From IMG/VR virus record IMGVR_UViG_3300009034_000003: a DNA stretch of 29,666 nucleotides. One strand, written 5' to 3'. The notes beneath the pieces were generated by a model, which searched no databases, was not told where the DNA came from, and worked only from the letters and a program-made list of their open reading frames with translations. The position numbers and the translations under genes are program-made. Below are positions 16,828 through 27,240 of this stretch, piece by piece; position 1 is the first letter of the stretch; every line of letters begins with the position of its first letter. Origin of the DNA: a virus (lineage: Duplodnaviria; Heunggongvirae; Uroviricota; Caudoviricetes).

Positions 16828-16980
16828 TCGGTTGGACCGTTGTCAGTGAGTTATCACAAGTTCGAATCTTGTTCCGGGTTCCCCGGGGTGAGAGCCTCGG
16901 GCTACATGCCCGGATCGCTCGTTGGTAAGAGCACCCCTCTTCGGAGGGAACCATTCACAAGGCATTTTTTCGTCTGCCGA
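16828..16980 (+). ncRNA. Y RNA-like unit Y1 (permuted tRNA-like cargo)
   Basis: GGACCG 16834 / TCGTCT 16970 bulged helix; GTGAGTTATC; T arm ACAAG-TTCGAAT-CTTGT; closed acceptor; D arm GCTC-GTTGGTAA-GAGC; CCCTC-TTCG-GAGGG arm. Confidence 0.8.
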
Positions 16981-17031
16981 ATTGACGAAGGGGTGCAAAT
17001 TGCGAAAATTGTTAATAAAGAAGTAGTATTC

Positions 17032-17160
17032 TAACGGGCCGTTAGTTATGGGTTATCGGAAAGAGCACCAGCTTCGGCTGGCTGTACCGGTTCAAGCCCG
17101 GTTCCTTGTGCAAACGAGGATAGCTCAATAATAACGCCCATGACACCCACTCGCCCGTTA
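17032..17160 (+). ncRNA. Y RNA-like unit Y2 (tRNA-like cargo opened in D loop)
   Basis: TAACGGGCCG / TCGCCCGTTA; GGGTTATC; order GAGC, CCAGC-TTCG-GCTGG, T arm ACCGG-TTCAAGC-CCGGT, closed acceptor, TAGCTC. Confidence 0.85.
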
Positions 17161-17174
17161 TATCGACGACCTGA

Positions 17175-17308
17175 ATAAATGGGCCGGACGTATGAGGGTT
17201 ATCTCACTTTCAATGAGAAGATGGGAGGTTCGAGTCCTTCCCTACCGAAAGGTAGTAGCTCAAAGGTAGAGCACTAAATATTCCTCGTGCAAACTTTCGC
17301 CCATTTAT
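17175..17308 (+). ncRNA. Y RNA-like unit Y3 (tRNA-like cargo with intact TTC anticodon arm)
   Basis: ATAAATGGGCCG / TCGCCCATTTAT; GGGTTATC; TCTCA-CTTTCAA-TGAGA, T arm GGAGG-TTCGAGT-CCTTC, CTACC-GAAA-GGTAG, D arm GCTC-AAAGGTA-GAGC. Confidence 0.85.
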
Positions 17309-17339
17309 CTTCTTGATATATTGTATCAATTTTGTGTTG

Positions 17340-17451
17340 TGTTGGGTTGGGTTGCTAGAGGGTTGTTACAGGGATTACCGTACAATAGCTTCCGGAGGCT
17401 GTACGGACTTGGAGCAAGGTGCTGGGAAACTTGCAGCAACTCTTCTCAACA
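17340..17451 (+). ncRNA. structured RNA within array (possible degenerate unit)
   Basis: TGTTGGG/CTCAACA and GAGGGTTGT/GCAACTCTT stems, GGGATTAC motif, inner CGTAC/GTACG hairpin; no bulged Ro helix. Confidence 0.35.
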
Positions 17452-17462
17452 TAAGCGATCTT

Positions 17463-17571
17463 ATGTGGGCCGTTGAGTAAAGGTTACCATTAGCACCGCG
17501 ACCAGACCAGGGGTGGTCGTTAATATACCTTCCGCGGTTTAACAGTGTCTTTATTCGCTATTCGCCCACAT
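17463..17571 (+). ncRNA. Y RNA-like unit Y4
   Basis: ATGTGGGCCG / TCGCCCACAT; GAGTAAAG/CTTTATTC stem; GGTTACC; ACCGCG/CGCGGT cargo. Confidence 0.8.
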
Positions 17572-17593
17572 GTTCTTTGACAGGTGAATTACT

Positions 17594-17706
17594 GACTTTT
17601 ATGAGAAGATGATAGACCAAATGAGCCACGGTGCATGGCTGAGGTTTCACATTTGGCATCACCTCCTTTCAAGAGTATCATTCTTCAAATCTTGCTCATA
17701 AGAGTC
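17594..17706 (+). ncRNA. structured RNA within array (non-Y)
   Basis: GACTTTTATGAG/CTCATAAGAGTC 12-bp stem, inner CCAAATG/CATTTGG and AGCCA/TGGCT stems. Confidence 0.4.
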
Positions 17707-17708
17707 TT

Positions 17709-17906
17709 TCGGGCCGGTAGGAGAGGGTTATCAATACGATAAACCTGGTTACGGATCCGTGTAAAATCCGTATTCTGCCACGCGGGCAGAATAAAAGTAA
17801 TAAGCGCACTCGGTCGTGTGGACCGAGGTTAAACAACTAATCACTAGTCGACGGACTATAACTAATCGTAGAACGAAATGTTCGTCCTCGCCTAATATTC
17901 GCCCGA
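17709..17906 (+). ncRNA. Y RNA-like unit Y5 (multi-hairpin cargo)
   Basis: TCGGGCCG / TCGCCCGA; TAGGAGAGGG/TCCTCGCCTA; GGGTTATC; hairpins TACGGA/TCCGTA, TTCTGCC/GGCAGAA, CTCGGTC/GACCGAG, TAGTC/GACTA. Confidence 0.8.
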
Positions 17907-17943
17907 TCACCTGTCAATTCATCTTTGGGGGAGAGTAGAGAAG

Positions 17944-18097
17944 AATTGCGGACCGAAGAGGGAAGATTATCGCCTGCTCAAAAGGTCGTGGCGGACTAGG
18001 AAAACGCCAGGTGCGTGGGTGCACCGTTTCCTTCGGAGCTGGATATCGGAACCGGAGAGAATAAAATATAGACTTCTTTCAAGTCTCGTCCGCAATT
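17944..18097 (+). ncRNA. Y RNA-like unit Y6
   Basis: AATTGCGGACCG / TCGTCCGCAATT (compensatory A-U pair); GATTATC motif variant. Confidence 0.75.
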
Positions 18098-18103
18098 TCA
18101 TTT

Positions 18104-18179
18104 TGCTCCGTAGCTCAATTGGTAGAGTACCTGACTGTTAATCAGGGGGTTGTGGGATCGTTACCCACCGGGGCAGCCA
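18104..18179 (+). tRNA. tRNA-Asn(GTT), atypical T loop
   Basis: Full cloverleaf, U1-A72, CCTGA-CTGTTAA-TCAGG, G73, CCA; T loop ATCGTTA. Confidence 0.85.
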
Positions 18180-18190
18180 CGGGGCAGCCA
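18169..18190. repeat. 11-bp tandem duplication of tRNA-Asn 3' end
   Basis: CGGGGCAGCCA CGGGGCAGCCA. Confidence 0.9.
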
Positions 18191-18203
18191 TATAGAATAA
18201 CAA

Positions 18204-18347
18204 TATCGCTTGGGCCGGAGTTTTGTGGGTTATCCTTTTTGGAAGGCGTAGTCATTGGTTCAAATCCAATCGGGCACCCCAACGGTGCCTGTAGCTCAGC
18301 CAGGTAGAGCGCGTAAAACATCCACGAGCAAGTTTCGCCCGGCGATA
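18204..18347 (+). ncRNA. Y RNA-like unit Y7 (YrlA-like; permuted tRNA retaining CCA)
   Basis: TATCGCTTGGGCCG / TCGCCCGGCGATA; GGGTTATC; T arm ATTGG-TTCAAAT-CCAAT; CGGGCACC-CCA-AC-GGTGCCTG; D arm GCTC-AGCCAGGTA-GAGC. Confidence 0.88.
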
Positions 18348-18352
18348 CTTTT

Positions 18353-18490
18353 TGCTGGACCGCAGTAGATGGGTTACCTTGAAAACCTGAATGTCGTTAG
18401 TTCAAATCTAACCCCTTCCACCAATGGAAGGGTAGCTCAGTTTGGTAGAGCGTCAGGGTGTGTGTTCCATTTACGTTAACTCGTCCAGCA
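18353..18490 (+). ncRNA. Y RNA-like unit Y8 (YrlA-like; complete permuted tRNA-Phe(GAA))
   Basis: TGCTGGACCG / TCGTCCAGCA; GGGTTACC; TTGAAAA-CCTGA-ATGTC-GTTAG-TTCAAAT-CTAAC-CCCTTCC-A-CCA-AT-GGAAGGG-TA-GCTC-AGTTTGGTA-GAGC-G-TCAGG. Confidence 0.9.
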
Positions 18491-18508
18491 TTTGATAAGG
18501 GGATTGAC

Positions 18509-18748
18509 TTGTCTACACTCGAAGCTATTAAATTAACACCAGATATACGGACAGACTTAATGATTCTGGTTGCGAAGGAGCTACAGCAGGCTGCCGGAGA
18601 AGTTGATCTGTCTGTAAAGGAAAACGCCTATACGGTTGCCGTTTCTCTTGTTAGCTCAATCGCTACGCACTTGGAGTCCTGTAAGCTTCAGGAGGAAAGT
18701 CTTTCAGGGCATACAGTAAAACGGATGTTAGTTCCAGTAGGCGTGTAA
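18509..18748 (+). CDS. hypothetical protein embedded in Y RNA array
   Basis: AAGGGG RBS plus TTG start; fills the gap between Y8 and Y9. Confidence 0.5.
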   Translation: MSTLEAIKLTPDIRTDLMILVAKELQQAAGEVDLSVKENAYTVAVSLVSSIATHLESCKLQEESLSGHTVKRMLVPVGV

Positions 18749-18750
18749 TG

Positions 18751-18844
18751 TTCGGGCCGGAAAGTCAGGGTTATCTTAGGCAAAGCCGGTTCATCTAAGT
18801 GGATGGGCCGGTGGGATTTCTCCCTGATTTACAACTCGCCCGAA
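18751..18844 (+). ncRNA. Y RNA-like unit Y9
   Basis: TTCGGGCCG / TCGCCCGAA; AGTCAGGG/CCCTGATT; GGGTTATC; single cargo hairpin. Confidence 0.85.
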
Positions 18845-18870
18845 GCTTGAATAACGGATGGTGATGTGTA

Positions 18871-19071
18871 ATGGCAAGATGTGATACTTGTCCTTGCGCT
18901 CGCTGGGATGGCAGCAGCGATACAACGGTATGGTGCCGGAAGAAAAAGAAATACATAAAGGTCGGTAGGCTAAGGCATTTATTTGCTGCTGCGGAAACTA
19001 TTCAGCACGAACTCGAAGAGAGTAGAAAGATTATTCGGGCCGGAGATTCTCGGTTATCTAATTGCTTTTAG
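18871..19071 (+). CDS. small Cys-rich hypothetical protein embedded in array
   Basis: CDTCPC...WC; 3' end overlaps Y10. Confidence 0.4.
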   Translation: MARCDTCPCARWDGSSDTTVWCRKKKKYIKVGRLRHLFAAAETIQHELEESRKIIRAGDSRLSNCF

Positions 19072-19134
19072 ACTGAGGCCTATTTCCCACAAGAAGTCCC
19101 AGGCCTCTTTATTCCGAGGTCACAACTCGCCTGG
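19034..19134 (+). ncRNA. Y RNA-like unit Y10
   Basis: GGGCCG 19037 / TCGCCT 19127; CTCGG/CCGAG; GGTTATC; GAGGCCT/AGGCCTC cargo. Confidence 0.8.
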
Positions 19135-19142
19135 TATTTTGT

Positions 19143-19215
19143 TGTCTGGGCCGGTTGGTGTTGGTTATCACTAAAACCCTTTAGCAAGAATCCGACGCCG
19201 CTAACTCGCCTGACA
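19143..19215 (+). ncRNA. Y RNA-like unit Y11 (near-minimal)
   Basis: GGGCCG 19148 / TCGCCT 19206; GGTGTTGG/CCGACGCC; GGTTATC. Confidence 0.8.
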
Positions 19216-19221
19216 TTTTCA

Positions 19222-19276
19222 TGGGCCGGAGCACGAGGGTTACCTGTCCAGTTCCCCTTGTGCACTAACTCGCCCA
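19222..19276 (+). ncRNA. Y RNA-like unit Y12 (minimal)
   Basis: TGGGCCG / TCGCCCA; GCACGAGGG/CCCTTGTGC; GGGTTACC. Confidence 0.8.
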
Positions 19277-19290
19277 AATAAAAACTGGAC

Positions 19291-19350
19291 TTCATTGAGC
19301 CGAGCATCAGGGTTATCGGTTGCGTTCCTGGTGCGTTATTCGCTTGTGAA
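19291..19350 (+). ncRNA. Y RNA-like unit Y13 (minimal, abuts Ro60 RBS)
   Basis: GAGCCG / TCGCTT (compensatory); GCATCAGG/CCTGGTGC; GGGTTATC; ends at the GGAGG at 19351. Confidence 0.75.
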
Positions 19351-19363
19351 GGAGGTTTCACAA

Positions 19364-21274
19364 ATGAACAGAAGTTTGCAACAATTCGGTACAAAGAAAA
19401 CGCCTCAAGATGAGCGTATTCCCGGTCGGCCAGAAATGGTCGAGAATTATGCCGGTGGATACGGCTGGGAAGTAGACGACTGGATGAAGCTTCGCAGGTT
19501 CCTTTTCCTAGGAACAGAGGGAGGAACATATTACATTGGTGAGCGCGAGCTTACCAAAATGAACTGCGAAGCTATTATAAGGCTTATCGAGACGGATGGT
19601 GTCAACGTAGTTAATACTGTCGCCGAGATAAGCGACGCAGGTCGCGCTTATAAGAATGATTACGCTCTCTTCGTACTGGCAATGTGTGTTGGTATGGGGG
19701 ACAGTGCGACTAGACGAGCTGCGTTTGATGCTGTGCCAAAGGTTGCAAGGATCGGTACCCATGTGCTTCATCTCATTAGCTTCGCCGAGCAGTTTAGAGG
19801 CTGGGGCAGAGGTTTCAAGGGCGCTGTTGCCGGTTGGTATAATGGTAAGTCGCCAAGGGATCTTGTGTACCAGGTGCTGAAATATCAATCTCGTGACAAG
19901 TGGTCTCAGCGCGATGCTTTAAGATCTTGTCATCCAAAGCCAGCGAGTGACGTTTACGATTTCATCTACAGATACGTCACTCATGGAGTTAATAGACCGT
20001 TGTTTGAGCTTTCACCTGGGCACGGTGACGCTCTAGTTCCAATGGCTTCTGGGACCCTCGGTGGTCTTACAACTCAAGGTATATACGCCGACTTTGGGAA
20101 TAATGGTATCAGTTTTGTAGGAAGGCCTTCTGCAAAGCGAGTAGACGGCGAATGGCGTGTAAAAGATGTTCACGATGGTAAGATAAAGCAAAGCTTTTGC
20201 ATCAAGAAAGAAGGCGACAAGTTCGTTGTGTACGAGGACGCATTGTCATATTCTATGCGCGACATCGTTGCGCTAGTTGACAAGTACGGGGAACATGGCG
20301 TCGGTATGATCGAGGGCTTTGAGGAGGCTAAGAGAGCGGCCTCTGCAATTGAGATCGTGAAACTGATACGCGAGTATAATTTACCTCGTGAGTGCATTCC
20401 AACCCAGTTCCTTAGGGAGAGGGACGTTTGGAAGGAACTGCTTACCGCGGGCAGGGGAATGCCTATGACCGCCATGATACGGAACCTTGGCAATATGTCC
20501 AAGTGCGGTCTTCTCGTAGAGGGTGCTTTCGACATTATCAAATACGTCAGTGAACGTGTAACTGATCAGGAGATCTTGAAGAAAGCGCGTATACATCCGC
20601 TTGGGGTATTAGCCGCACTGAATACCTATGGTCGAGGCCGCGGTTTCAGGAGCGATAGTGAATGGCCAGTGGTCGGAGATGTTATGGATGCTTTGGACAA
20701 GGCTTTCTATTTGTCGTTCGACAATATCGTTCCTACAGACCAAAGAATCTGTATCGGTCTTGACGTTAGTGGTTCAATGGGCGGCGGCGAGATATTAGGT
20801 ATACCAGGTATGCAGCCTAGGATGGGTGCATGCGCAATGGTAATGGTTACCTATAGAACTGAGCCGTATGTTGCTGTCACGGCTTTTTCGCATCAGCTCG
20901 TTCCAGTTAGAATGCAACGGAATGAAAGCTTGAAAAGCCTTATGACTCGCACTGCCGCAATCCCAATGGGTGGAACCGATTGTGCGTTACCTATTCTCTG
21001 GGCGACCGAGCAGTATAAACGGAACTCGGACATAGTGTTCGATGCGTTCATAGTTTATACCGACTACGAGACGTGGTTCGGTAACATTCATCCGTGTCAG
21101 GCGCTAAACCAGTATCGTAACCTGACAGGGCGCCCAGTTCGTATGGCGACGGTCGGTTTGAGGGCTGAACCGTTCACCATTGCTGACCCGGAGGATTCGG
21201 GTACAATGGACTTTGTAGGATTTGACACGGCAGCGCCCGCAATGTTAAGTCAATTCTTACGAGGGGAGCTTTAG
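19364..21274 (+). CDS. rsr: Ro60/Rsr RNA-binding protein (TROVE + vWA), 636 aa
   Basis: NYAGGYGW...LRRFLFLGTEGGTYY, RIGTHVLHL, KYQSRDKWSQRD, LPRECIP, MPMTAMIRNLG, IHP, MIDAS LDVSGSM, GGTDCALP, TDYETW, GFD. ATG at 19364 after GGAGG. Confidence 0.95.
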   Translation: MNRSLQQFGTKKTPQDERIPGRPEMVENYAGGYGWEVDDWMKLRRFLFLGTEGGTYYIGERELTKMNCEAIIRLIETDGVNVVNTVAEISDAGRAYKNDYALFVLAMCVGMGDSATRRAAFDAVPKVARIGTHVLHLISFAEQFRGWGRGFKGAVAGWYNGKSPRDLVYQVLKYQSRDKWSQRDALRSCHPKPASDVYDFIYRYVTHGVNRPLFELSPGHGDALVPMASGTLGGLTTQGIYADFGNNGISFVGRPSAKRVDGEWRVKDVHDGKIKQSFCIKKEGDKFVVYEDALSYSMRDIVALVDKYGEHGVGMIEGFEEAKRAASAIEIVKLIREYNLPRECIPTQFLRERDVWKELLTAGRGMPMTAMIRNLGNMSKCGLLVEGAFDIIKYVSERVTDQEILKKARIHPLGVLAALNTYGRGRGFRSDSEWPVVGDVMDALDKAFYLSFDNIVPTDQRICIGLDVSGSMGGGEILGIPGMQPRMGACAMVMVTYRTEPYVAVTAFSHQLVPVRMQRNESLKSLMTRTAAIPMGGTDCALPILWATEQYKRNSDIVFDAFIVYTDYETWFGNIHPCQALNQYRNLTGRPVRMATVGLRAEPFTIADPEDSGTMDFVGFDTAAPAMLSQFLRGEL

Positions 21275-25365: not shown

Positions 25366-25623
25366 ATGGAATTCAAAGAGTCACGACATGGAAGAAGAAT
25401 AAGGCATACCGAGCGAGTTATTAGGAACAGGTTACGGTTTCTCAAGGCAATGGGACCGGATGAGTGGTATAAGGTGCATCTTGGGGATAGGCACAGATTA
25501 GCTAAGAGGCACCCTTGGGATTGCGGTCGAAGCAAATGTCATATATGCCATCCCGAAAAGCTTTTTGGGCGACCGAAAGCCAAGAATATAATACCGAAGT
25601 ATGAATATGAAGAGATACCCTAA
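25366..25623 (+). CDS. hypothetical basic protein
   Basis: HPWDCGRSKCHICHPEK, putative Zn motif. Confidence 0.65.
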   Translation: MEFKESRHGRRIRHTERVIRNRLRFLKAMGPDEWYKVHLGDRHRLAKRHPWDCGRSKCHICHPEKLFGRPKAKNIIPKYEYEEIP

Positions 25624-26158
25624 GATATACAGGATTCAAATAGAGGGTTTTGTCAAGAGAGGAAAGTACTATCTTACTCCTGATGAAGTTACTCGTCTTC
25701 TTGATGGTCCAATTTGCGTCGAAGAGAAGATCGATGGGAAACTCGTGGAGTCACCTCAACATGAGCAAGAGGGTTATATTCTTTTTTACGAGAATGCTAA
25801 GCGAAGGCACACTGTAGAATACATGCAATTGCCAGCTTGGCTAATTGGTATTGATGTTTGGGATGGAGAATGTTTTCTCGGCCGGACAGACAGGGAAATA
25901 GTCTTTGGGGCGTTGGGCGTTCCTGTTGCTCCATTGCTTTTCAAAGGCTGTGTAAATAGTATTCATTCACTCATCACTTTCATAGGCCAGCCTTCAGCAT
26001 ATGGTGCTGAACGTATAGAAGGGATTGTTATCAAGAATTACAGCCAACAGATGATGGGTAAAATTGTTGATCCGGTTTTCGATCGCATAGTGGATACAGC
26101 AGGTCATCATCTGAAAAGGGCTTTTGTTAGAAACAGATTGGATTTGAGCTATGTCTAA
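25601..26158 (+). CDS. ATP-dependent RNA ligase, Rnl2-like (minimal nucleotidyltransferase domain)
   Basis: YPKI, motif I EEKIDG, FYEN, IGIDV, VPVAPLLFKG, motif IV EGIVIK, motif V GKIV. Confidence 0.75.
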   Translation: MNMKRYPKIYRIQIEGFVKRGKYYLTPDEVTRLLDGPICVEEKIDGKLVESPQHEQEGYILFYENAKRRHTVEYMQLPAWLIGIDVWDGECFLGRTDREIVFGALGVPVAPLLFKGCVNSIHSLITFIGQPSAYGAERIEGIVIKNYSQQMMGKIVDPVFDRIVDTAGHHLKRAFVRNRLDLSYV

Positions 26159-26897: not shown

Positions 26898-27188
26898 ATG
26901 AGGAGAATAGCAATGGACAAAGAACAAGGAGAGCTTTTAACAGTTCTGGCTTCTACTCCGCGCCTTGGGGTGCTGTGGTGGAAGCGAGAGACCTTCGACT
27001 GGTACAAGGCCCATCCCGATGAGATCTACAGTCGGAGTAGGAATCGCTATGTCGCAGCACTTATAGCTGAAGGTAACGTAGCTAGAATGGCTAGAACGTT
27101 AAGACAAGATAAAGAGAGAATAGAGAGATGGCTTGAGAAGTATGAAGAGTACAAGGGAAGGTATCCAAGTCCGGTTAAAGGAACCTGA
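26898..27188 (+). CDS. hypothetical protein
   Basis: GAGGAG RBS; stop inside tRNA-Tyr. Confidence 0.55.
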   Translation: MRRIAMDKEQGELLTVLASTPRLGVLWWKRETFDWYKAHPDEIYSRSRNRYVAALIAEGNVARMARTLRQDKERIERWLEKYEEYKGRYPSPVKGT

Positions 27189-27240
27189 CTGTAGATCAGG
27201 CGTGCAAGCTTCGTGGGTTCGAATCCCACCCTTCCCACCA
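27155..27240 (+). tRNA. tRNA-Tyr(GTA)
   Basis: GGGAAGG/CCTTCCC, CCTGA-CTGTAGA-TCAGG, long variable arm, A73-CCA. Confidence 0.93.

What the first reader, a model, noticed from the sequence alone, without database searches (positions are those of the whole stretch)
18379..18457. Y8 encodes an apparently complete permuted tRNA-Phe(GAA) with CCA; Y7 also keeps CCA
Seen: joining 18426-18457 (5' half) to 18379-18423 (3' half) gives a canonical 77-nt cloverleaf with loop TT-GAA-AA, A73 and CCA; only a 2-nt AT linker joins CCA to G1. Y7 has CCA-AC between its acceptor strands and a TTG or TGG anticodon-like loop depending on register. Established: permuted tRNA genes matured via circular intermediates are known in Cyanidioschyzon and Thermofilum, using splicing endonuclease. 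Inference: a latent tRNA stored on Ro60 could be excised, ligated and opened by RNase P, or it records how Y RNAs arise from tandem tRNA genes. Caveat: ACCTTGA (18376-18382) can also pair with TCAGGGT, so the GAA loop may be sequestered.
Basis: partly seen in the sequence, partly recalled or inferred. Interest (0 to 1): 0.8.

Follow-up and report, generated by a model that had tools for sequence, protein, structure and literature searches.

The report
Phage Y RNA holding permuted tRNA-Phe
One of about eleven Y RNA genes upstream of a phage Ro60 gene carries a complete but circularly permuted tRNA-Phe look-alike (anticodon loop, A73 and CCA included), the most tRNA-complete known example of a described class of tRNA-mimicking Y RNAs and probably not a hidden working tRNA gene.

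Summary
Joining 18426-18457 to 18379-18423 gives a 77-nt cloverleaf with every tRNA invariant, loop TTGAAAA, A73 and CCA, and a 2-nt linker. It sits inside Y8 (18354-18492), one of at least 11 Y-RNA modules upstream of a phage Ro60 gene.

An ARAGORN call alone proves little: 62 of 140 control modules, permuted the same way, also get called. Under strict criteria Y8 is the only one of 115 that combines a 5/5 distal anticodon stem, a canonical loop and N-CCA.

Orthologues support the tRNA-like fold through compensatory changes, not the slipped pairing that would bury GAA. One (L001) keeps TTGAAAA and ACCA. The other (L016) has lost GAA, CCA and the seventh acceptor pair but keeps the Y frame.

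There is no bulge-helix-bulge motif and no conserved splice junction.

Best reading: a YrlA-class tRNA mimic on Ro60, probably opened by RNase P as shown for M. smegmatis YrlA. A latent spliced tRNA is unlikely (about 4%).

Y7's CCA is not conserved.

This is a new variant of a known kind. No expression data could be obtained.

The parts
18354..18492 (+). Y8, whole Y-RNA-like module (Ro60-binding stem plus permuted tRNA-like domain)
   Evidence: Rfam YrlA hit at 18369-18487, 38.9 bits, below the gathering score of 69. Fold z-score -3.9. Positional orthologues in L016 and L001.
18354..18378 (+). 5' strand of the Ro60-binding bulged helix (GCTGGACCG...ATGGG) and the GGTTACC motif
   Evidence: The motif GRCCG-N6-12-RRTTAY occurs 11 times on the + strand in 16835-19224. 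There is one more hit at 1900, none on the - strand, and 0.66 expected in the whole window. The lower and upper stems are conserved in L016.
18379..18385 (+). Anticodon-loop-like heptamer TTGAAAA (U33, G34 A35 A36, A37)
   Evidence: Identical heptamer in L001, closed there by a local stem TCGA/TCGG. ATTCAAT in L016. Unpaired in the consensus fold.
18386..18395 (+). Anticodon-stem 3' strand CCTGA (39-43) and variable loop ATGTC (44-48)
   Evidence: Pairs with 18453-18457. Two compensatory changes and one one-sided change against L016.
18396..18412 (+). T arm GTTAG-TTCAAAT-CTAAC
   Evidence: Three compensatory pairs against L016.
18413..18425 (+). Acceptor 3' strand CCCTTCC, discriminator A73, CCA, and the 2-nt linker AT
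   Evidence: ACCA is also present in L001. N-CCA after a 7-bp acceptor occurs in 6 of 64 surveyed modules against 1.6 expected.
18426..18457 (+). Acceptor 5' strand GGAAGGG, U8 A9, D arm GCTC-AGTTTGGTA-GAGC, G26, anticodon-stem 5' strand TCAGG. The predicted RNase P site is 18425|18426.
   Evidence: The RNase P site is inferred from the 7-bp acceptor and the M. smegmatis precedent.
18458..18492 (+). 3' strand of the Ro60-binding helix (...TTCCAT...AACTCGTCCAGC)
18208..18348 (+). Y7, a YrlA-like module with a 7-bp acceptor and the loop C-CCA-ACG
   Evidence: Rfam YrlA 38.3 bits.. The CCA is absent from the orthologues.
19295..21274 (+). Ro60 (Rsr) orthologue. This is the longest ORF. The database record of the same protein has 612 aa.
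   Evidence: Pfam TROVE 5.7e-32 and vWA_Ro60 1.7e-51. Homologues.
25601..26158 (+). Small RNA ligase (PF09414) among the tRNA genes. Context only.
   Evidence: Pfam RNA_ligase 2.2e-08.

Best explanation
Y8 is a YrlA-class Y RNA. Its 5' and 3' ends form the bulged helix that Ro60 binds, and its effector domain is a tRNA mimic.

Here the mimic is unusually complete: a circularly permuted tRNA-Phe-like cloverleaf, with the Y stem attached between positions 31 and 32. The 'anticodon loop' TTGAAAA is a 7-nt single-stranded bulge between the Y stem and the anticodon stem. The acceptor stem is closed by A73-CCA-AU.

Shown here: the anatomy, the Ro60 linkage, and conservation of the tRNA-like fold.

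Inferred: the acceptor stem has 7 bp, with U at -1, G at +1 and RCCA. Host RNase P therefore probably nicks the loop at 18425|18426, as it does in M. smegmatis YrlA, and 3' trimming of AU would leave a two-piece RNA on Ro60 with a genuine ACCA-3' end. No ligation is needed. The RNA acts as a tRNA look-alike that engages a tRNA-binding partner, not as a decoder on the ribosome.

The module probably descends from the phage's own CCA-encoding tRNA genes.
For: - Ro60 gene lies 805 nt downstream on the same strand.
- 11 modules carry the same Ro-stem motif, against 0.66 expected.
- Sub-threshold YrlA hits on Y8, Y7 and Y3.
- Fold z-score -3.9.
- Consensus fold with L016: both Ro stems conserved, the distal anticodon stem has 2 compensatory and 1 one-sided change, the T stem has 3 compensatory changes, and the heptamer is unpaired.
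- L001 keeps TTGAAAA and ACCA, with compensatory acceptor changes: GGGAAGG/CCTTCCC against GGAAGGG/CCCTTCC.
- All 7 linear tRNAs of the window encode CCA.
- M. smegmatis YrlA (7-bp acceptor) is cut by RNase P in vitro, and in vivo it is found as two halves whose ends fit RNase P cleavage followed by CCA addition; both halves co-precipitate with Rsr (Chen et al. 2014, PMC4201824).
- A Mycolicibacterium module in my survey has a 7-bp acceptor closed by only ACAT (L096), which suggests that a short loop is compatible with cleavage, if it matches the M. smegmatis RNA.
- Complete local anticodon hairpins (9 of 108 against 0.17 expected) and N-CCA (6 of 64 against 1.6 expected, P about 0.004) recur in Ro60-linked modules from distant phages and bacteria.
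- Phage Ro60 with Y-like RNAs binds host PNPase in vitro (PMC12135203).
Against: - No expression, end-mapping or binding data.
- The YrlA score is below Rfam's gathering threshold (38.9 against 69 bits).
- The slipped pairing that buries GAA is isoenergetic in this sequence.
- RNase P cleavage of a 6-nt closed loop containing CCA is inferred, not tested.
- L016 lacks CCA and the seventh acceptor pair. If nicking occurs, it is therefore not conserved across the Y8 lineage.
- The effector partner is unknown.
Confidence: 0.6

Rival explanations
1. Latent permuted tRNA-Phe gene. The module is cut out of the Y stem at 18378|18379 and 18457|18458 and the ends are ligated, for example by the phage RNA ligase. 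RNase P and 3' trimming then open the CCA-AU-G1 loop and release a functional tRNA-Phe.
For: - Complete cloverleaf with every invariant, GAA, A73 and encoded CCA.
- No linear tRNA-Phe among the 7 tRNAs of the window.
- An RNA ligase gene lies about 7 kb downstream.
- The possibility was raised for YrlA RNAs in general by Wang et al. 2018.
Against: - No bulge-helix-bulge. The two required cuts are directly opposite each other at a helix junction.
- No splicing endonuclease has been reported in bacteria, and none turned up among the 30 larger ORFs scanned.
- The break point differs between orthologues: 31|32 in the window and L016, about 26|27 in L001.
- L016 has lost GAA, CCA and the seventh acceptor pair but keeps the Y frame.
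- Only 30 kb of a contig of about 123 kb was seen, so a linear tRNA-Phe may lie elsewhere.
Confidence: 0.04
2. Evolutionary relic. Y8 works as an ordinary Y RNA. The GAA heptamer and CCA are undecayed leftovers of a fairly recent birth from tRNA gene material (the dimeric-tRNA model) and have no present function.
For: - L016 has ATTCAAT, a 20-nt acceptor loop without CCA and only 6 acceptor pairs.
- Y7's CCA is not conserved.
- 'Anticodons' in other modules are diverse: GAA, UUU, CAU, UCU, GCU, GUA.
- Overall similarity to 378 real tRNAs does not single out Phe: best Phe 0.71, Tyr 0.74, Trp 0.73.
Against: - TTGAAAA and ACCA are identical in the window and L001, although the modules are only 75% identical and their stems carry compensatory changes.
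- Anticodon hairpins and CCA are enriched far above shuffled expectation in distant Ro60 loci. That needs either retention by selection or many independent births.
Confidence: 0.25
3. Bait or decoy. The exposed anticodon-like bulge and acceptor end are the working parts. They engage a tRNA-specific enzyme (PheRS, a modification enzyme, or a host anticodon nuclease used in defence) and bring it to, or titrate it on, the Ro60 particle. The diverse 'anticodons' of sister modules would address different targets.
For: - Diversity of anticodon-like loops in Ro60-linked modules.
- Y3 of this window carries a local arm CTCA-CTTTCAA-TGAG.
- The neighbourhood holds tRNA genes and an RNA ligase.
- Ro60/Y RNA loci are linked to RNA repair in the literature.
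Against: Purely inferential. No nuclease, synthetase or defence gene is tied to it here. The bulge geometry differs from a hairpin loop.
Confidence: 0.08

Closest known systems
YrlA-class bacterial and phage Y RNAs (Rfam RF02553; Chen et al. 2014; Wang et al. 2018, S. Typhimurium YrlA structure, PDB 6CU1)
   Same: - Encoded next to Ro60.
- The Ro-binding stem is formed by the two ends.
- The T arm lies 5' of the D arm and the acceptor stem is closed.
- The distal 'anticodon stem' is formed by 5' and 3' segments.
- Already described in print as resembling circularly permuted tRNAs.
   Different: - S. Typhimurium YrlA lacks the anticodon loop and a CCA end and has a 6-bp acceptor. Y8 has a 7-nt canonical loop sequence with GAA, A73-CCA and 7 bp.
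- Y8's Ro stem keeps both strands of the metazoan-like helix; it also hits the nematode sbRNA model.
- It scores below the Rfam threshold.
M. smegmatis YrlA (RNase P-cleaved, CCA-added Y RNA; Chen et al. 2014)
   Same: A 7-bp acceptor stem closed by a short loop. Both halves stay on Rsr after cleavage, and the 5' half ends in CCA.
   Different: In M. smegmatis, CA is added after nibbling. In Y8 the whole CCA is encoded and only AU would need trimming. No anticodon loop was reported there. Cleavage of Y8 is untested.
Permuted tRNA genes of Cyanidioschyzon merolae and Thermofilum (Soma et al. 2007; Chan et al. 2011, as cited)
   Same: The 3' half is encoded upstream of the 5' half with a short linker across the acceptor ends. 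The distal stem is formed by the transcript ends.
   Different: Those have a bulge-helix-bulge cut by the splicing endonuclease and are proven to yield mature tRNAs through circles. Y8 has no such motif, sits in a Ro60-binding frame, and its break point is not conserved among orthologues.
Thermus phage phiLo Ro60 with Yrl1/Yrl2 (PMC12135203)
   Same: A phage-encoded Ro60 with Y-like RNA genes immediately upstream. The RNAs bind Ro60 and host PNPase in vitro.
   Different: There are two Yrl RNAs there and no tRNA-like domain is mentioned (0 occurrences of 'tRNA-like'). Here there are at least 11 modules, several with tRNA-like cargo.

Membership tests
YrlA-class Y RNA (RF02553) | Encoded within about 4 kb of a Ro60 orthologue (criterion used by Chen et al. 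2014) | tested here: met
   Y8 ends at 18492. The TROVE + vWA_Ro60 ORF starts at 19295 on the same strand.
YrlA-class Y RNA (RF02553) | The 5' and 3' ends form a bulged helix with the conserved Ro60-binding sequence | tested here: met
   GCTGGACCG.../...CTCGTCCAGC pairs in the MFE and in the consensus fold with L016. The motif is shared by 11 modules. Actual Ro60 binding cannot be tested here.
YrlA-class Y RNA (RF02553) | T arm, closed acceptor stem, D arm in that order, with tRNA invariants | tested here: met
YrlA-class Y RNA (RF02553) | Reaches the Rfam gathering score | tested here: not met
   38.9 bits against 69 (E = 2.1e-06 in a 2.7-kb search). The Ro stem and linker differ from the seed. 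I therefore file it as YrlA-like or YrlA-class, not as a curated family member.
Canonical tRNA-Phe | Cloverleaf with invariant positions, anticodon GAA, A73, CCA | tested here: met
   Met only after permutation.
Canonical tRNA-Phe | Collinear gene (positions 1 to 76 in order) giving a free RNA of about 76 nt | tested here: not met
   Neither ARAGORN nor Rfam tRNA calls it in genomic order. The halves are permuted and embedded in a Y stem.
Canonical tRNA-Phe | Body sequence closest to tRNA-Phe rather than to other isoacceptors | tested here: inconclusive
   Against 378 tRNAs from the fetched loci, best Phe is 0.71, Tyr 0.74 and Trp 0.73.
Canonical tRNA-Phe | Aminoacylation by PheRS and decoding | not testable with these tools
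   Needs biochemistry.
Permuted tRNA genes (C. merolae / Thermofilum type) | 3' half upstream of the 5' half, joined across the acceptor ends by a short linker | tested here: met
   CCA-AT-G1.
Permuted tRNA genes (C. merolae / Thermofilum type) | Bulge-helix-bulge motif at the junction to be excised | tested here: not met
   The junction is one 7-8-nt bulge or internal loop, and the two required cut sites lie directly opposite each other. The break point is not conserved in L001.
Permuted tRNA genes (C. merolae / Thermofilum type) | Circular intermediate and mature collinear tRNA | not testable with these tools
RNase P-opened YrlA (M. smegmatis type) | Seven-base-pair acceptor stem stacked on a 5-bp T stem | tested here: met
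RNase P-opened YrlA (M. smegmatis type) | Cleavage at position +1 by RNase P, with the halves retained on Ro60 | not testable with these tools
   Precedent only.

The most novel reading that the evidence does not exclude
Y8 and its L001 orthologue would be genuine sources of a chargeable tRNA-Phe-like molecule held on Ro60. There are two routes. In the first, the RNase P-nicked two-piece RNA is aminoacylated by PheRS through its exposed GAA bulge, A73 and CCA. In the second, it is excised and sealed by the phage RNA ligase into a free tRNA-Phe when host tRNA is damaged. The second route would be the first permuted or split tRNA maturation pathway in the bacterial and phage world.
Probability: 0.07. 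Interest if true: 0.9.

Novelty: new variant of a known kind. Interest (0 to 1): 0.45.

Why it matters
The literature describes YrlA Y RNAs as tRNA mimics that lack the anticodon loop and a CCA end. It only speculates that they came from dimeric tRNA transcripts and might be processed toward tRNAs.

Y8 is a natural intermediate. Its acceptor stem is a true tRNA acceptor stem followed by A73-CCA and a 2-nt spacer, not a spacer-derived stem, and the anticodon loop sequence survives. That gives the origin model a concrete example. It also gives experimenters a clean substrate for three assays: RNase P cleavage, PheRS charging, and a search for circular or back-spliced RNA.

The side survey adds that intact anticodon hairpins and encoded CCA recur in Ro60-linked modules of distant phages and bacteria. 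The role of the tRNA-like domain may therefore involve the anticodon and acceptor ends, not only the elbow.

Tried and rejected
- No whole genome is held for this window, so I could not ask whether the phage has a linear tRNA-Phe elsewhere on its contig of about 123 kb.
- Close relatives: single-protein scans of IMG/VR and the metagenome contigs found nothing. Exact DNA patterns found nothing or only L016's own contig. Phage GenBank has no relative; only the tRNA-Asn matches. Orthologues came only through exact-protein look-ups and an alignment-based scan. The contig of the 84%-identical Ro60 gave no DNA.
- BLAST of the 45-nt 3' half against phage records was uninformative.
- I rejected 'ARAGORN calls it tRNA-Phe' as evidence of specialness after 62 of 140 control modules were also called.
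- Ranking against 378 real tRNAs did not single out Phe.
- The promoter and terminator scan was not above shuffled background, so transcript ends remain unknown.
- The small ORF downstream of Y8 has no homologues beyond itself in the protein collection, so it could not be used to fish for more orthologues.
- A tRNA search of L016's record found only four matches, all within the stretch already held as L016, and no record is held for L001, so it gave no answer on a linear tRNA-Phe.
- The slipped helix ACCTTGA:TCAGGGT was considered as the real structure. I rejected it as the conserved one because L016 cannot form it, whereas the tRNA-like stem covaries.

Full report
**Setting.** The window looks like part of a large phage genome. 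Nearly all long ORFs lie on the + strand, and seven tRNA genes are interspersed with small ORFs. Identified genes include RecA, a NusG-like protein, QueD/radical-SAM enzymes, an SbcCD-like pair and a small RNA ligase. The ORF at 19295-21274 is a Ro60 (Rsr) orthologue, with TROVE at 5.7e-32 and vWA_Ro60 at 1.7e-51. The 2.5 kb upstream of it is essentially non-coding. It holds 11 copies of the motif GRCCG-N6-12-RRTTAY, all on the + strand, where 0.66 are expected in the whole window. Rfam gives sub-threshold YrlA hits on three of them and nematode Y-RNA (sbRNA) hits on others.

**The observation.** Every letter and coordinate in the finding is correct.
- Permuting 18426-18457 in front of 18379-18423 gives a 77-nt sequence that ARAGORN draws as a canonical tRNA-Phe(GAA).
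- It has a 7-bp acceptor, U8, A14, G18 G19, A21, a G15-C48 pair, G26, a 5-bp anticodon stem, the loop UUGAAAA, a 5-nt variable loop with G46, G53-U54-U55-C56-A58-C61, A73 and CCA.
- In genomic order neither ARAGORN nor the Rfam tRNA model calls it.

**Is it special?** I fetched 160 other Ro60 loci, 80 viral and 80 bacterial. I scanned them with my own detector for a T arm followed by an acceptor hairpin and a D arm.
- It found 140 modules; 115 do not overlap linear tRNAs.
- Permuted in the same fixed geometry, 62 of the 140 are also called tRNA by ARAGORN. The ARAGORN call is therefore weak evidence.
- Strict criteria separate Y8. A 5/5 distal anticodon stem occurs in 11 modules, a Y-U-NNN-R-N heptamer in 32 of the clean set, and N-CCA after a 7-bp acceptor in 6. 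All three occur together only in Y8.

**A wider pattern.** The same survey showed something the finding did not anticipate.
- Many Ro60-linked modules carry a complete local anticodon hairpin directly after the GGGTTATC motif. Examples are TCCT-CTGAAAA-AGGA (L066), TCGA-CTTCTAA-TCGG (L088) and TCTA-CTGCTAA-TAGA (L046).
- After removing duplicates there are 9 of 108, against 0.17 expected from shuffles.
- N-CCA after a 7-bp acceptor is also enriched: 6 of 64 against 1.6 expected, P about 0.004. One viral module has an acceptor loop that is nothing but ACCA (L048).
- Y8 is therefore the best example of a recurrent tendency, not an isolated oddity.

**Orthologues.** Relatives were found through the Ro60 protein.

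*L016* (Ro60 62% identical in the best-matching segment) is syntenic: tRNA-Asn, a Y RNA, the Y8 orthologue, then the same small ORF.
- A consensus fold of the window and L016 keeps both Ro stems.
- It keeps the distal anticodon stem, with two compensatory changes and one one-sided change, and the T stem, with three compensatory changes. The heptamer is left unpaired.
In the window sequence alone the slipped helix UACCUUGA:UCAGGGUG is the MFE at -49.5 kcal/mol, against -49.4 for the tRNA-like stem. L016 cannot form the slipped helix, so the tRNA-like form is the conserved one.
- L016 reads ATTCAAT instead of TTGAAAA. It has a 20-nt acceptor loop without CCA and only six acceptor pairs.

*L001* (Ro60 70% identical) keeps TTGAAAA and ACCA.
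- Its acceptor is GGGAAGG/CCTTCCC, two compensatory differences from the window's GGAAGGG/CCCTTCC.
- Its heptamer is closed by a local stem, TCGA/TCGG. The Y stem therefore joins the tRNA at about 26|27 rather than 31|32. Permuted there it is again a tRNA-Phe(GAA) cloverleaf.
- In L001 the CCA and G1 are separated by 347 nt that hold a conserved structured element, a tRNA-Ala gene and a 62-aa ORF.
- The two halves still cofold strongly in trans: ddG -19.1 kcal/mol, against -4.6 +/- 3.3 for shuffles.

**Y7.** In the tRNA frame Y7 reads acceptor CGGGCAC, then C73-CCA-ACG, then GTGCCTG, so CCA is present. The orthologous loops are CACAG, CATTATG and TAC, so it is not conserved. Its 'anticodon-like loop' is a conserved 4-bp hairpin with a 5-nt loop: CCTT-TTTGG-AAGG here, CTTC-TTAGG-GAAG in L001, and the same with a G-U pair in L016.

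**What is known.**
- Chen et al. 2014 (PMC4201824) defined YrlA RNAs next to Ro60 in 254 bacteria and 22 phages.
- They showed that M. smegmatis YrlA, which has a 7-bp acceptor stem, is cut by RNase P in vitro. In vivo it is found as two halves whose ends fit RNase P cleavage, the 5' half carrying an added CA that completes a CCA tail, and both halves co-precipitate with Rsr.
- Wang et al. 2018 (bioRxiv 10.1101/312249) solved the S. Typhimurium YrlA tRNA-like domain. [quoted passage not shown]
- They cite the dimeric-tRNA origin model (Sim and Wolin 2018). They explicitly raise the possibility that some YrlAs are processed like the permuted tRNAs of algae and archaea, while noting that no splicing endonuclease is known in bacteria.
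- Both interpretations in the finding are therefore published speculation.
- Phage Ro60 with upstream Y-like RNAs has been characterised in Thermus phage phiLo (PMC12135203).

**Mechanism.** The most economical reading is that Y8 is a Ro60-bound Y RNA whose effector domain is a full tRNA-Phe mimic.
- It has a 7-bp acceptor stacked on a 5-bp T stem, with U(-1), G(+1), A73 and CCA. From general knowledge of bacterial RNase P, these are the determinants of cleavage, so I expect cleavage at 18425|18426, as in M. smegmatis.
- A Mycolicibacterium module in my survey has a 7-bp acceptor closed by only ACAT (L096). If it corresponds to the M. smegmatis RNA, a short loop is no obstacle.
- Trimming of AU would expose ACCA-3'. 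This needs no excision or ligation.
- All seven linear tRNAs of this phage encode CCA. This fits derivation of the module from the phage's own tRNA genes.
- It also refines the dimeric-tRNA model. Here the acceptor stem comes from true tRNA acceptor strands, not from the inter-tRNA spacer.

**Why not a latent tRNA.**
- The two required cuts lie directly opposite each other at a helix junction. They are not in a bulge-helix-bulge.
- The break point differs between orthologues.
- L016 has lost the tRNA-Phe features but keeps the Y frame.
- No endonuclease candidate was seen among the 30 ORFs scanned.
- Overall similarity to real tRNAs does not single out Phe.
- I put this reading at about 4%. 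A pure-relic reading gets about 25%, and a bait or decoy role for the anticodon and acceptor ends about 8%.

**Limits.**
- No genome is held for the window.
- No read data were available.
- There are only two orthologues.
- Transcript ends are unknown.
- RNase P cleavage, Ro60 binding and charging are inferred, not shown.

**Verdict.** This is a new variant of a known kind and of moderate interest.

Noticed in passing
L001:8962-9460: The Y8 orthologue is split. The 5' part (Ro-stem strand, GAA hairpin, T arm, CCTTCCC-ACCA) and the 3' part (GGGAAGG, D arm, Ro-stem strand) are separated by 347 nt that hold a conserved structured element, tRNA-Ala(GGC) and a 62-aa ORF. The halves cofold with ddG -19.1 kcal/mol, against -4.6 +/- 3.3 for shuffles. 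It may be a two-piece Y RNA released by tRNA processing.
   Followed up: partly
L001:6265-6385 and L016:2050-2180: These are Y-RNA frames (GGGCCG...GGGTTATC ... TTTCGTC / TTTAGCCC) that enclose a non-permuted tRNA-like sequence. ARAGORN calls the L001 one 'tRNA-???' with a 4-base anticodon, gtac. The corresponding place in the window (about 17340-17440) looks different.
   Followed up: no
window 17182-17305 (Y3): Y3 carries an intact local anticodon-like arm, CTCA-CTTTCAA-TGAG (UUC), directly after GGGTTATC, then a T arm, a short closed acceptor and a D arm. The Rfam tRNA model scores 24.6 bits on 17184-17248.
   Followed up: partly
window 18166-18187: The 3' end of tRNA-Asn is duplicated in tandem: CGGGGCAGCCA CGGGGCAGCCA, that is, part of the acceptor 3' strand, the discriminator and CCA, twice. 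It may be a recombination footprint.
   Followed up: no
window 27155-27240 vs L001:8962-9460: The window's tRNA-Tyr has the acceptor GGGAAGG/CCTTCCC with A73-CCA. This is identical to the acceptor of L001's Y8 orthologue and one register away from the window's Y8 (GGAAGGG/CCCTTCC). It could reflect exchange between tRNA genes and Y modules, or chance.
   Followed up: no
L001:8294-8374, L002:834-913, L003:956-1035, L005:409-425, L016:2695-2770: A 17-nt motif, ATCTCCCATAGCCGCAC, sits in the loops of two tandem long hairpins between Y RNA genes in all the related phage contigs. It is absent from the window even with 3 mismatches. No Rfam family matched it.
   Followed up: partly
L001:9045-9125 and L002:1100-1190: A conserved element of about 80 nt, closed by GGTATATCC...GGATATACC, lies upstream of tRNA-Ala in two relatives. 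No Rfam hit.
   Followed up: no
L048:3854-4017 (IMG/VR viral contig): This is an independent viral Y RNA. Its tRNA-like module has a local anticodon hairpin (TCTC-CTTGAAA-GAGA), a 7-bp acceptor, and an acceptor loop consisting only of ACCA, so CCA is joined directly to N1.
   Followed up: partly
window 18509-18748: The small ORF after Y8 most likely starts at TTG 18509, with GGGGA six bases upstream, rather than at GTG 18458 inside Y8. It is conserved in L016 (2358-2590) but has no other homologue.
   Followed up: partly
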